Made by a program: the position numbers and the translations under genes. A stretch of 64,000 bases of DNA from the NCBI GenBank assembly GCA_964013565.1, contig CAXGWU010000011.1, positions 121 through 64,120 on the forward strand. Direction: 5' to 3'. The stretch comes from an uncultured Oligoflexia bacterium. Its GTDB lineage: Bacteria; Bdellovibrionota; UBA1018; UBA6935. This document shows positions 49,806 through 51,887 of this stretch, one piece after another. Position 1 is the stretch's first letter. Each line of letters begins with the position of its first letter. Below the pieces are notes generated by a model. It searched no databases, was not told where the DNA came from, and saw only the letters and a list, made by a program, of their open reading frames with translations.

Positions 49806-51887
49806 TTACTGAATGACTTTTTGTGTTATTTTTGTTGCCGGATTAAACTCTTGACTTCTTGTGAGATGTTTCATTTTTAAGAAATGATATGCTTCTTGCA
49901 GCGTGGACCAGTTTTGATTTGAAAAAAAAGTCAATCCTTTTTGTTGAGCAGCTCTTCTCTTTGCAGCTTCTCCGTGGATGGTTCCGATTTTCCCATTTTC
50001 TAAAATATGACCACTTGCACTCCATTTTTTTAACTGACTTTGATAGAGAGTATTTTTTAAAGAAAGAGAGAGTTCAATGAATGCTAAAGCAAAAGCTAAT
50101 CCACAAGATTCTGTTTGAGCAACTTGATAATTCTCGTTTTCACTAGAACTTATAAAAAATGTGTAATTATTTAAGTTTTTAGTTGAAGGACAGGTTTTTA
50201 TAAGAGTTTTAATTGTGGAAATAATGGTGTTTTGAAGTGATCTCGATAGGTGATCTTCAAAATGAAAATTTATTTTTGAGGAATAAGATTTTTTTATTTT
50301 AATTTGAAATGGAATTTGAATGGCTTCAGTTCCTTTTTTGTTACATGCTAATAAATGAATTTTTTTCCTTTGATCAAAAGAAGATTCTAGATGACTTACT
50401 CTAAAGATAGTATATTTTTTTGACCACAGTTCTAAGATAGACTCAAAGTAGATTCTTGTTTTTGAGTCAATGTGAACATCTGGTTCATCAATAAATATAA
50501 ATCTAACATTTTTATCTAAACTTTGAATGATTCGGATAAGTGAAAATACAAAAAGCTCTCCTGACGATAGATTTTTTTCTTTTTTTAAAGAGACAAATAC
50601 TGTTTTAAATTTATTTAACCAAAAATTAATTTCTTCTTGAGAAAGATTTTTTAATTCTTTTTCTATTTTTATTTTCATTTTTTTCCAGTTTAAAGAAATG
50701 GGTGAAATCTTCTCGGGTCGAGAAACAAGTGATCTATATTTTCCGTGAATTTGATTTTTGATTATTTCGATATGTTCTCTTTTCCAATATTGGTATTCTG
50801 TGCAGTGTCCTTTCCAAGCTTCTATTAATGTTGATTTTCCAGAACCATTTTCTCCATGAATCCATTGAATGCCTAATTGAGGTGTGAATGATACTAAGCT
50901 TTGATCTAATAGTTTAAATTCTATAGGAAAAAGTTTTTTTTGAACCCGCGGTTTTTTATCTACTGAAATTAATATTTTTTCTTCCAATGACGAAATTTGA
51001 TTTTTTAAAGAATGATATTCCTGTTTTTGAATGAGTAGTTGTCTCAGTGCATTTAATCCTTCCATTAGATATTCTGTGACTCCAAACCAAATAAATGCAG
51101 ATTTAATGTCTAATTTTCCTGTAAAACAAGAGTACATTGTAATTACAAAGCAAATTAAAAACGGTAGATCTAAACTTAATTTAGATAACCCATCTTTTTT
51201 AAAAAGATTTAAATGAAGTTTTTTTTGAATTGAAAACCAAGAATTCCCACAGTTTTTAACCCAGTCGAGATAATTTTCTAAATGAGAAAAATTAGAATAA
51301 ATTTCGGAATTTCCTCTAAAAAAACTAGATATCCAAGTGAGTAATTCTGATTTTGATTTTTGTAATTGATTAATAATTTTTTTATATTGATTATGGTACC
51401 ATTTTCCGCTTATGTAAGAAAATAATGTAAGAATAGGGATATACGTGACTCCAGTCCAGTATTGATCGCTAATAATGATTGTTGAATAAATTACTGTAAC
51501 TGAAATAATTGTTGAAATTAAAGTGATTTTTTCAAATTTCAAATTTTCTATTCGATTTCGTTGTTCTGAATAATAGAGATAGACTTTGTCGTAATCATTT
51601 TTAATTTGATGATTTACAAAAAGGGGAAAAAACTTTCTCCAATGAAACTGAACTTCATTTATTGACCATGTAGATTTAAAAAATTCCCTGATAGATAAAA
51701 TAAAGTGAGCAGATAAGTGCAAGATAATTACGAAGACTGTAAGTAAAATAAAGGATTTTAAGTTCAATTTCTTTTCTACGATTCCACTAATCCATTCACT
51801 TTTTTGTGAAACCATTAAAAAATGAAGAAAAAAGTAAAAGAATGTAAATGCAATTAAAAGTGCAGATTTTATTTTATACCGATTCAT
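49806..51887 (-). CDS. ABC exporter (fused TMD-NBD) with C-terminal Lon-type (S16) peptidase-like domain
   Basis: N-terminal ~5 TM helices. Walker A GENGSGKST, ABC signature LSSGE, Walker B FIFIDEPDVHID and H-loop RVSH. C-terminal ~150 aa read TESCGLAFALAFIELSL…WSASGHILENGKIGTIHGEAAKRRAAQQKGLTFF, paralleling Lon DGPSAGxxMxTALxSxLT…VAMTGEITLRGxVLPIGGLKEKxLAAHRxGI (Ser-Lys dyad). Confidence 0.6.
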   Translation of the reverse strand: MNRYKIKSALLIAFTFFYFFLHFLMVSQKSEWISGIVEKKLNLKSFILLTVFVIILHLSAHFILSIREFFKSTWSINEVQFHWRKFFPLFVNHQIKNDYDKVYLYYSEQRNRIENLKFEKITLISTIISVTVIYSTIIISDQYWTGVTYIPILTLFSYISGKWYHNQYKKIINQLQKSKSELLTWISSFFRGNSEIYSNFSHLENYLDWVKNCGNSWFSIQKKLHLNLFKKDGLSKLSLDLPFLICFVITMYSCFTGKLDIKSAFIWFGVTEYLMEGLNALRQLLIQKQEYHSLKNQISSLEEKILISVDKKPRVQKKLFPIEFKLLDQSLVSFTPQLGIQWIHGENGSGKSTLIEAWKGHCTEYQYWKREHIEIIKNQIHGKYRSLVSRPEKISPISLNWKKMKIKIEKELKNLSQEEINFWLNKFKTVFVSLKKEKNLSSGELFVFSLIRIIQSLDKNVRFIFIDEPDVHIDSKTRIYFESILELWSKKYTIFRVSHLESSFDQRKKIHLLACNKKGTEAIQIPFQIKIKKSYSSKINFHFEDHLSRSLQNTIISTIKTLIKTCPSTKNLNNYTFFISSSENENYQVAQTESCGLAFALAFIELSLSLKNTLYQSQLKKWSASGHILENGKIGTIHGEAAKRRAAQQKGLTFFSNQNWSTLQEAYHFLKMKHLTRSQEFNPATKITQKVIQ

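What the first reader, a model, noticed from the sequence alone, without database searches (positions are those of the whole stretch)
49806..51887. ABC exporter with a C-terminal Lon (S16)-like Ser-Lys peptidase domain instead of the usual N-terminal C39 peptidase
Peptide-exporting ABC transporters that also cleave leaders normally carry an N-terminal papain-like C39 domain. Here the layout is N-terminal TM helices, then an NBD (GENGSGKST, LSSGE, FIFIDEPDVHID, RVSH), then about 180 aa reading TESCGLAFALAFIELSL … ASGHILENGKIGTIHGEAAKRRAAQQKGL. That tracks the Lon proteolytic-domain motifs: the GPSAG catalytic Ser region, and the GEI-x-L-x-G-x-V-x-P-IGG-x-KEK region with the catalytic Lys. I do not recall this fusion being described. 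It suggests a distinct leader-processing and export mechanism for the adjacent RiPP precursor. An alternative is that the domain is a degenerate Lon-like fold used only for substrate binding.
Basis: partly seen in the sequence, partly recalled or inferred. Interest (0 to 1): 0.8.

Follow-up and report, generated by a model that had tools for sequence, protein, structure and literature searches.

The report
ABC exporter fused to Lon-type peptidase
A membrane export pump in a predatory-bacterium genome carries at its tail a small Lon-type serine-lysine protease domain, which probably trims the leader off a neighbouring modified peptide before export; I found no description of this layout, or of the conserved gene cassette it belongs to.

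Summary
The ORF 49806-51887 lies on the minus strand and encodes 693 aa: transmembrane helices, an ABC ATPase, then about 185 extra residues.

The extra domain is a Lon (S16) proteolytic-domain homologue:
- Family profiles hit Lon (hhalign probability 89-92%; LonB in PDB at E 1e-5; Pfam Lon_C in relatives).
- The window's copy alone is too diverged for Pfam.

In 32 unique homologues, median 26% identical, only three columns are invariant. Two of them are Ser594 and Lys643, which align with E. coli Lon Ser679 and Lys722.

The gene closes a conserved cassette: a precursor peptide with SDGKEGG repeats, a secreted beta-helix-like protein, a 271-aa unknown, an ATP-grasp ligase and the ABC. I found it in about 40 loci from Legionellales, Chlamydiae, Bdellovibrionota, Psychromonas and Vibrio.

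The Lon-like module is either fused to the ABC or a stand-alone 165-225 aa gene. Loci that lack it encode leaderless precursors.

The best reading is a leader peptidase coupled to export, analogous to C39 PCATs but with a different protease class and position. Activity is untested. I found no prior description.

The parts
49806..51887 (-). Whole gene: 693-aa ABC half-transporter with a C-terminal Lon-like domain. Its start overlaps the ATP-grasp stop by 14 nt.
   Evidence: ORF list and translation; the same gene is called in the NCBI MAG record.
50958..51887 (-). Transmembrane domain, residues about 1-310: long helices typical of ABCB-type (type I exporter) half-transporters. No N-terminal C39 domain.
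   Evidence: Hydropathy. NCBIfam NF045998 aligns residues 8-510 to positions 155-671 of a peptidase-ABC model, E 1e-5, far below its cutoff. PDB YheH aligns to 121-509, E 2e-3. The low-confidence full-length model still retrieves BmrCD, ABCB7, PCAT1, PrtD and HlyB.
50367..50930 (-). ABC nucleotide-binding domain, residues about 320-507: Walker A GENGSGKST, signature LSSGE, Walker B FIFIDE, H-loop His499. It is divergent and scores about equally against SMC_N.
   Evidence: Pfam ABC_tran E 4e-7; motif positions; invariant columns in homologues.
49809..50366 (-). Lon (S16) proteolytic-domain homologue, residues 508-693.
50106..50108 (-). Codon of Ser594, the predicted nucleophile, aligned with E. 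coli Lon Ser679.
   Evidence: Invariant in 32/32 homologues; alignment register; codon checked.
50013..50015 (-). Codon of Ser625, Thr in 29/32 homologues, aligned with Lon Thr704 of the MTGE motif.
49959..49961 (-). Codon of Lys643, the predicted general base, aligned with E. coli Lon Lys722.
   Evidence: Invariant in 32/32; register; codon checked.
51874..52872 (-). ATP-grasp ligase of the RiPP (graspetide) maturase type, 332 aa.
   Evidence: PDB PsnB 7drm E 6e-7 alone and 7.8e-12 as a family profile; also AMdnB and MdnC. TIGR04187/04192/04185 hit weakly, below cutoffs.
52869..53684 (-). 271-aa protein of unknown fold, a core cassette member. It is fused to the ATP-grasp in one relative (L036).
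   Evidence: Present in 42 of 47 loci. No Pfam, NCBIfam or PDB hit. Not detectably ATP-grasp.
53700..54191 (-). 163-aa protein with a signal peptide; beta-rich, with bactofilin-like repeats in relatives. A core cassette member.
   Evidence: Family alignment. 33 loci by HMM, plus the Chlamydial 184-aa form, which is homologous to the Legionella form at E 8e-21. Weak Bactofilin hit.
54204..54386 (-). 60-aa precursor peptide: a leader ending ...SIYF-GIGG, three SDG(K/V)EGG repeats, and a tail ending FSF. The predicted cleavage is between Phe20 (54327-54329) and Gly21 (54324-54326).
   Evidence: The peptide family is conserved in about 40 loci. The cleavage site is an inference from leaderless homologues that start MG[WFY]SSDGKEGG.

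Best explanation
The gene encodes a bifunctional ABC half-transporter. A type-I-exporter transmembrane domain and an ABC ATPase are followed directly by a minimal, cytoplasmic Lon-type (MEROPS S16-like) Ser-Lys peptidase domain. It is the last gene of a five-gene RiPP-like cassette. The proposed sequence of events is this. The 60-aa precursor is modified in its SDGKEGG repeats by the ATP-grasp ligase, probably together with the 271-aa partner, forming side-chain ester or amide cross-links. Ser594/Lys643 of the Lon-like domain then cut off the short N-terminal leader, most likely between F and G of the conserved hxFFG[IFMV] motif (F20|G21 here). The homodimeric pump exports the product to the periplasm, where the signal-peptide protein of the cassette resides. 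Functionally this is an analogue of the C39 peptidase-containing ABC transporters (PCATs), with a different protease class placed at the opposite end of the polypeptide. SHOWN: the domain order; Lon-fold homology; invariance of Ser, Thr/Ser and Lys at the Lon catalytic positions; cassette conservation; fusion/fission of the Lon-like module; and co-variation of that module with the leader. INFERRED: catalytic activity, the substrate, the cleavage site, the order of steps, the dimeric state and the direction of transport.
Confidence: 0.6

Rival explanations
1. The domain is an active Ser-Lys peptidase, but its substrate or role is not leader removal for export. It might trim the variable C-terminal tail, degrade unmodified or mis-modified precursors as quality control or self-protection, or process another cassette protein.
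For: The catalytic residues are conserved, but nothing identifies the scissile bond. Some loci have the stand-alone Lon-like gene and no ABC. V. chagasii keeps NBD+Lon-like with a peptide and the secreted protein but no ATP-grasp. The peptides also have a conserved C-terminal [YF]xF that could serve as a recognition element.
Against: The only cassette feature that disappears together with the Lon-like module is the N-terminal leader. The tail, the C-terminal [YF]xF, the ATP-grasp and the secreted protein persist in the Lon-less loci where I examined them, and the 271-aa family is detectable in eight of the nine. The leaderless peptides begin exactly at the G of the FG motif.
Confidence: 0.2
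2. The domain is a catalytically inert Lon-fold module, as in RadA/Sms, ComM or BrxL. It would serve as a leader- or peptide-binding, dimerisation or regulatory domain of the ATPase.
Against: Ser, Thr/Ser and Lys at the Lon catalytic positions are 32/32 conserved, while almost everything else varies: 3 invariant columns out of 167. To my knowledge the RadA-type inert domains have lost this dyad. A pure binding or dimerisation role does not predict that exactly these residues stay invariant.
Confidence: 0.15
3. The C-terminal region is a nitroreductase-fold (SagB/NfsB-like) domain, as seen in some RiPP clusters.
For: The single sequence gives a weak phmmer hit to NfsB-type nitroreductases (6czp, E 0.025) and to NCBIfam NF008275 (E 0.002, residues 547-602). 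A published survey reports nitroreductase-superfamily genes in some graspetide loci (PMC8939145).
Confidence: 0.01

Closest known systems
Peptidase-containing ABC transporters (PCATs / AMS proteins: PCAT1, ComA, LagD, CvaB, LahT; C39 peptidase + ABCB-type exporter)
   Same: A half-transporter of the ABC exporter fold, covalently fused to a cytoplasmic peptidase domain and encoded in a ribosomal-peptide gene cluster. The presumed logic is the same: cut the leader, then export. PCAT1, PrtD and HlyB are among the structural matches of the TMD-NBD part, and NF045998 aligns to residues 8-510.
   Different: The peptidase is a Ser-Lys Lon (S16) fold, not a Cys-His papain-like C39. It sits C-terminal to the NBD, not N-terminal to the TMD. 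The conserved leader motif is hxFFG[IFMV], not the double-glycine consensus. The peptidase is a separate gene in most relatives. There is no membrane-fusion or TolC partner in the window cassette.
Lon proteases (MEROPS S16: LonA, LonB, LonC) and their proteolytic (P) domain, Pfam PF05362 Lon_C
   Same: The same fold and the same Ser/Thr/Lys active-site positions. The P-domain directly follows a P-loop ATPase.
   Different: The ATPase is an ABC NBD on a membrane transporter, not an AAA+ unfoldase ring. The domain is minimal, 160-185 aa. The window copy falls below Pfam detection. The expected assembly is dimeric rather than hexameric. The presumed activity is site-specific processing rather than processive degradation.
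Stand-alone or non-AAA+ Lon-like domains: CalpL (SAVED-Lon protease of type III CRISPR), RadA/Sms, ComM and BrxL C- or N-terminal Lon-like domains
   Different: None of these is linked to an ABC transporter or to peptide natural-product cassettes. RadA, ComM and BrxL are considered non-proteolytic (own knowledge), whereas this family keeps the dyad.
Graspetide (omega-ester/amide peptide) gene clusters: microviridin MdnB/C, plesiocin PsnB
   Same: The ATP-grasp ligase is closest to PsnB, AMdnB and MdnC. The precursor has repeated Ser/Lys + Asp/Glu motifs, as in plesiocin-type repeats. An ABC exporter sits in the cluster.
   Different: The scores against curated graspetide ligase models are far below their cutoffs. 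Two extra conserved proteins of unknown function are present. The peptidase is Lon-type. A 2023 review of RiPP leader peptidases does not mention Lon or S16 at all (PMC10885120), and the two graspetide surveys I searched do not describe this cassette (PMC8939145, PMC13097080).

Membership tests
Lon (S16) proteolytic domain superfamily | Lon P-domain fold: ribosomal-protein-S5-domain-2-like beta-alpha core, with the Ser at a helix N-terminus | tested here: met
Lon (S16) proteolytic domain superfamily | Significant sequence-profile similarity to Lon_C | tested here: met
   Met at family level only: hhalign 89% and 92%; PDB LonB E 1.2e-5; Pfam Lon_C in 3 of 6 members, with L043 above the gathering score. 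The window protein alone gets no Pfam hit.
Lon (S16) proteolytic domain superfamily | Ser-Lys catalytic dyad at the homologous positions (E. coli S679/K722) | tested here: met
   S594 and K643 are invariant in 32/32 sequences and T/S625 aligns with T704. The numbering was checked against 6u5z.
Lon (S16) proteolytic domain superfamily | Peptide-bond hydrolysis | not testable with these tools
   Needs an enzyme assay with S594A and K643A controls.
Classical Lon protease (LonA/LonB) | AAA+ ATPase module preceding the P-domain; hexameric ring | tested here: not met
   The preceding ATPase is an ABC NBD with an LSSGE signature. There is no AAA+ Lon module. The oligomeric state was not tested.
PCAT / AMS peptidase-containing ABC transporter | ABCB-type exporter TMD + NBD in one polypeptide | tested here: met
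   The evidence is weak but consistent: NF045998 aligns over 8-510, YheH over 121-509, and exporter structures top the Foldseek list for a low-confidence model.
PCAT / AMS peptidase-containing ABC transporter | N-terminal C39 (papain-like Cys) peptidase domain | tested here: not met
   TM1 starts at about residue 6 and there is no Peptidase_C39 hit. By contrast, the neighbouring true PCAT in L007 does hit PF03412.
PCAT / AMS peptidase-containing ABC transporter | Substrate with a double-glycine leader | tested here: inconclusive
   The window peptide has ...FGIGG|S, but the family-wide motif is FG[IFMV]x, and many members have no GG.
ABC ATPase | Walker A, ABC signature, Walker B with catalytic Glu, H-loop His | tested here: met
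   The motifs are at 345-353, 440-444, 463-470 and 499, and are invariant in homologues. Where the Q-loop Gln would be expected, homologues read RVVERDP and the window protein reads YRSLVSRP, so no Q-loop Gln is evident.
Graspetide biosynthetic cluster | RiPP-type ATP-grasp ligase next to a precursor with Ser/Thr/Lys and Asp/Glu core residues | tested here: met
   PsnB hits at 7.8e-12 with the family profile. The precursor carries SDGKEGG repeats. Scores against curated TIGR04187/04192 models are far below their cutoffs, so this is a distant branch.
Graspetide biosynthetic cluster | Side-chain macrolactone or macrolactam cross-links in the product | not testable with these tools
   Needs co-expression and MS (-18 Da per link).
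Nitroreductase superfamily | Nitroreductase fold or profile match | tested here: not met
   There is only a single-sequence hit at E 0.025. It is absent with profiles and in fold searches.

The most novel reading that the evidence does not exclude
The window holds one member of an undescribed RiPP-like system spread through intracellular and predatory bacteria (Legionellales, Chlamydiae, Bdellovibrionota). Its leader is removed by a dedicated minimal Lon-type Ser-Lys peptidase. In Bdellovibrionota this peptidase has been fused to the C-terminus of the cassette's ABC exporter. That would make it the first S16 leader peptidase and the first peptidase-ABC transporter built with a non-C39 protease at the opposite end. 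The precursor's SDGKEGG repeats and C-terminal [YF]xF would then define a new peptide class.
Probability: 0.5. Interest if true: 0.85.

Novelty: new variant of a known kind. Interest (0 to 1): 0.75.

Why it matters
Leader removal is the least understood step for many RiPPs, graspetides included. The first dedicated microviridin protease was reported only in 2026 (PMC13039773).

If the reading holds, a minimal Lon-type peptidase acts as a dedicated leader protease, and a second, independent way of building a cut-and-export ABC machine exists. That would:
- add a new protease class to RiPP biosynthesis;
- give genome-mining tools a new marker;
- provide a 165-aa stand-alone enzyme of possible use for leader removal in vitro;
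- show that the Lon P-domain can be driven or positioned by an ABC ATPase rather than an AAA+ ring.

The cassette itself sits in Legionella, Coxiellaceae, Chlamydiae and Bdellovibrio-like organisms. It encodes a strikingly conserved peptide of unknown function in bacteria that live in or on other cells.

Tried and rejected
- **Nitroreductase fold.** Suggested by weak single-sequence hits. Rejected by profile and fold searches.
- **Word-index homologue search, full protein.** It found only the protein itself.
- **Word-index homologue search, 3-sequence C-terminal alignment.** It found nothing.
- **Exhaustive phmmer with residues 508-693.** It found only two true relatives plus a spurious FN3-repeat protein. 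The family was reached instead through neighbours of the ATP-grasp.
- **The search for related loci with the C-terminal alignment.** No confirmed locus in genome contigs or metagenome contigs.
- **3-sequence profile against PDB.** No Lon hit. The 6-sequence profile did hit Lon.
- **afdb50 fold library.** Unavailable, so I could not look for annotated AFDB proteins with the same architecture.
- **Full-length AF2 with locus-derived sequences.** The 3-sequence run gave a poor model (pLDDT 49), so I draw nothing from it on domain packing.
- **The 271-aa protein as a degenerate second ATP-grasp.** Not supported (BLASTP E 1.9, hhalign probability 0.3%). It has no PDB hit.
- **The idea that the Legionella nautarum C39-PCAT replaces the missing Lon domain.** Dropped. 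That locus has its own stand-alone Lon-like gene and a separate GG-leader peptide for the PCAT.
- **The idea that the secreted 163-aa family co-varies with the leader.** Corrected. The Chlamydial 184-aa proteins are its homologues.
- **Promoter and terminator scan.** Uninformative.
- **Literature searches.** Searches for Lon/S16 with RiPP, leader or ABC, and for the repeat 'SDGKEGG', found no description.
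Full report
**1. Observation**

The coordinates 49806-51887 hold one 693-aa ORF on the minus strand; the plus-strand frame is full of stops.
- Walker A GENGSGKST, 345-353
- ABC signature LSSGE, 440-444
- Walker B FIFIDEPD, 463-470
- H-loop RVSH, 496-499
- TESCG, 592-596
- GKIGTIHG...KRRAAQ, 632-648

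Hydrophobic segments start at residue 6, so there is no N-terminal extra domain. Pfam sees ABC_tran (342-469, E 4e-7) and nothing in residues 508-693. The identical protein is deposited as a 'hypothetical protein' of a Bdellovibrionaceae/Pseudobdellovibrionaceae MAG.

**2. What the C-terminal domain is**

A single-sequence search gave a misleading weak hit to NfsB-type nitroreductases (E 0.025), so I treated that as a rival.

An exhaustive phmmer search of 1.8 billion representatives with residues 508-693 found only two true relatives. P0002 is 683 aa with the same layout. P0003 is 356 aa, NBD plus the same domain, from Vibrio chagasii.

AlphaFold2 on this three-sequence alignment gave a moderate model (pTM 0.62; residues 1-80 have pLDDT 70-87). 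The fold searches on it were unambiguous:
- Foldseek against PDB returned only Lon proteolytic domains and BrxL in the top 50 (E about 2e-5, probability 1.0).
- No nitroreductase appears in either list.

More relatives were found through gene neighbourhoods (section 3). With them the sequence evidence became significant:
- The 6-sequence profile against the E. coli Lon P-domain gives hhalign probability 89%, E 2e-6.
- hmmsearch of PDB gives A. fulgidus LonB 1z0e at E 1.2e-5, followed almost only by Lon entries.
- Pfam Lon_C matches 3 of 6 members, best E 5.9e-8.
- A 32-sequence profile against E. coli plus B. subtilis Lon gives 92%, E 6e-7 over 137 columns.
- One fused homologue (L043, 709 aa) passes the Pfam gathering scores of both ABC_tran and Lon_C.

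**3. Catalytic residues**

It is identical except for the engineered S679A. By that numbering the catalytic Ser is S679 in GPSAG, and K722 is the second Lys of GGLKEK. The identity of the dyad itself is established knowledge.

All alignments put the window protein's Ser594 on S679, Ser625-Gly626 on T704-G705, and Lys643 on K722.

I collected 32 unique Lon-like segments, with 167 alignment columns and pairwise identity of 13-91% (median 26%). Only three columns are invariant: S594, G632 and K643. Thr/Ser625 is 32/32 and Gly626 is 30/32.

**4. Context: a conserved cassette**

In the window, five minus-strand genes are packed with small gaps or short overlaps:
- a 60-aa peptide (54204-54386)
- a 163-aa signal-peptide protein (53700-54191)
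- a 271-aa protein (52869-53684)
- a 332-aa ATP-grasp (51874-52872)
- the ABC-Lon gene

The ATP-grasp is of the RiPP-maturase kind. PsnB 7drm hits at E 6e-7 alone and 7.8e-12 as a family profile, and AMdnB and MdnC also hit. Curated graspetide models score far below their cutoffs.

Homologues of the ATP-grasp and a scan of GTDB species genomes gave 37 further loci. They come from Legionella species, Coxiellaceae, Parachlamydiales/Waddliaceae, Bacteriovoracaceae, Pseudobdellovibrionaceae, Oligoflexia and Psychromonas.

I ran six-frame ORF calling and hmmsearch on these loci, with these results:
- The 271-aa family is in 42 of 47 fetched loci and is fused to the ATP-grasp in L036.
- The secreted family is found throughout. 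Its Chlamydial 184-aa form is homologous to the Legionella form at E 8e-21.
- No NCBIfam model exists for any cassette component.

**5. The precursor family**

The small peptides are remarkably conserved. Each has:
- a 12-25 residue leader ending [ILV]x[FY]FG[IFMVL]x;
- two or three SDGKEGG heptads, or an RD-repeat variant in L004, L036 and L043;
- a variable tail;
- a C-terminal [YF]xF.

No paper in the searchable library contains 'SDGKEGG'.

**6. Fusion and fission**

The Lon-like module is fused to the ABC C-terminus in the window and in L002, L006, L009, L010/L012, L011 and L043. These are Bdellovibrionota-type MAGs where the origin is named. In V. chagasii it is fused to an NBD without a TMD.

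In 24 Legionellales and Psychromonas loci it is instead a stand-alone 165-225 aa gene at the head of the cassette, with no signal peptide. In those loci the ABC, when present, is 533-573 aa with no extra domain.

This Rosetta-stone pattern shows that the module is a functional component of the cassette, not an accidental appendage.

**7. Co-variation with the leader**

Every locus with a leader-bearing precursor and enough flanking sequence has the Lon-like module, about 30 loci in all. The one apparent exception, L028, is cut 98 nt upstream of the secreted-protein gene, where the Lon-like gene normally lies.

Nine loci lack the module: L022, L023, L027, L034, L035, L042, L044, L046 and L047. 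They are Chlamydiae plus one Pseudobdellovibrionaceae MAG. None has a Lon-like ORF, even at E<=50 with filters off. Where the precursor is on the contig, it starts directly at MG, mostly MG[WFY]SSDGKEGG (L022 and L047 are variants), so it has no leader. In L046 the precursor is off-contig.

These loci keep the ATP-grasp, and eight of the nine keep a detectable 271-aa family gene. A secreted-protein homologue was found in six of them.

Met-Gly N-termini lose the Met (established MetAP specificity). The leaderless peptides would therefore mature to G[WF]SSDGKE.... That is the sequence which cleavage between F and G of the FFG motif would produce from the leader-bearing ones. For the window peptide I therefore predict cleavage at F20|G21.

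This is an inference. The events are phylogenetically clustered and some contigs are truncated.

**8. The transporter part**

- NCBIfam NF045998, a peptidase-containing ABC transporter model, aligns to residues 8-510 (E 1e-5, far below its cutoff).
- YheH aligns to 121-509.
- The Legionella orthologue hits CydD, LssB and NF045998 more strongly.
- The full-length AF2 model is poor (pLDDT 49, pTM 0.29), but it consists of the long helices typical of type I exporters. Its Foldseek hits are BmrCD, ABCB7, PCAT1, PrtD, HlyB, MsbA and TAP.

I take the exporter assignment as likely. I draw nothing about packing from that model. Since the NBD is cytoplasmic, so is the Lon-like domain that follows it without a linker.

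**9. Mechanism proposed, and rivals**

The best-supported mechanism is a cut-and-export machine. The ATP-grasp, with the 271-aa partner, cross-links the repeats. The Lon-like Ser594/Lys643 site removes the leader. The ABC dimer exports the product. My confidence in this is about 0.6.

Rivals:
- An active peptidase with another substrate or role, about 0.2.
- A non-catalytic Lon-fold binding or regulatory module as in RadA, ComM or BrxL, about 0.15. The invariance of exactly the dyad argues against this.
- A nitroreductase fold, refuted.

**10. Comparison with what is known, and novelty**

The closest functional analogue is the C39 PCAT family. Membership fails on the defining N-terminal C39 domain, and the GG-leader criterion is inconclusive.

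The domain belongs to the Lon/S16 P-domain superfamily on fold, profile and dyad. It is not a classical Lon, because there is no AAA+ module.

On prior description:
- A 2023 review of RiPP leader peptidases contains no mention of Lon or S16.
- The two graspetide surveys I searched do not describe this cassette or a Lon-type peptidase.
- Targeted searches found nothing.
- The library lacks most subscription-journal papers, and I could not query InterPro architectures. 'Undescribed' therefore means not found here.

I rate it a new variant of a known kind: a peptidase-ABC exporter with a new protease class, a new position, and a stand-alone form. It is embedded in what looks like an uncharacterised RiPP-like system.

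Noticed in passing
window 54204-54386 (-); also L006:2059-2232, L007:6998-7159, L010:69-227, L037:4375-5063 (three tandem copies) and about 35 other loci: A highly conserved small-peptide family: a leader ending hxFFG[IFMV], then 2-3 SDGKEGG heptads, a variable tail, and a C-terminal [YF]xF-COOH. That C-terminus resembles the C-terminal signature of outer-membrane beta-barrel proteins and DegS-activating YxF peptides (own knowledge, speculative). No paper in the library contains 'SDGKEGG'.
   Followed up: partly
L004:9092-9253, L036:5784-5981, L043:11-121: A second core type in the same cassette family. Here (RD)n repeats, for example RGRDSDRNRDRDRDG and RERDRDRDRDRDRDGG, replace SDGKEGG. The FG leader motif (where the N-terminus is on the contig) and the C-terminal aromatic-x-F are kept. 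It is unclear what an ATP-grasp would cross-link in these.
   Followed up: no
L004:10001-11071 (Vibrio chagasii chromosome 2, CP034971.1; WP_164880368.1): A 356-aa soluble NBD + Lon-like protein with no TMD. It lies next to a precursor-like peptide and the secreted protein, but no ATP-grasp or 271-aa gene is present. This is either a decayed remnant or a soluble ATPase-peptidase version. Only identical copies are available, so selection could not be assessed.
   Followed up: partly
window 52869-53684 (-): A 271-aa protein family with no detectable homology to anything in Pfam, NCBIfam or PDB. It is present in 42 of 47 loci, always near the ATP-grasp, and is fused to it in L036 (616 aa). It is a likely obligate partner of the ligase.
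   Followed up: partly
window 53700-54191 (-); L007:6446-6982; L042:6935-7489: A signal-peptide, beta-rich protein family of about 163-200 aa that is core to the cassette. Legionella and Chlamydia forms show bactofilin-like repeats (weak PF04519 hit). The Bdellovibrionota/Vibrio forms have two conserved Cys. Its role is unknown; it could be a periplasmic carrier, an immunity protein or an export partner.
   Followed up: partly
L007:10637-16184 (Legionella nautarum): Directly downstream of the cassette lies a classical bacteriocin-type module: a 53-aa peptide with a double-glycine leader (LSPEDLGKVAGG), two unknown proteins, a HlyD-type protein and a true C39-PCAT of 691 aa. Two different peptidase/export solutions therefore sit side by side.
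   Followed up: no
loci L011-L047: The cassette is found almost only in intracellular or predatory lineages: Legionella, Coxiellaceae, Parachlamydiales, Waddliaceae and Bdellovibrionota. Psychromonas and Vibrio are the exceptions. That hints at a role in interaction with host or prey cells.
   Followed up: no
window 50367-50930 (-), NBD: The NBD is unusually divergent. It scores as well against SMC_N as against ABC_tran. Where the Q-loop Gln would be expected, homologues read RVVERDP and the window protein reads YRSLVSRP. A long helical insertion lies between Walker A and the signature motif.
   Followed up: no
window 58881-60250 (-): A separate RimK-type ATP-grasp (301 aa) with an upstream RimB-like protein (155 aa) lies about 5 kb from the cassette. 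It is unrelated to the cassette ligase, hitting the cassette ATP-grasp profile only at E 5e-4.
   Followed up: no
window 49332-49748 (-) and 54656-55150 (-): The two flanking small signal-peptide proteins are a 138-aa Cys-rich protein downstream and a 164-aa protein upstream. Neither has a homologue in any of the other cassette loci, so they are probably not part of the system.
   Followed up: yes
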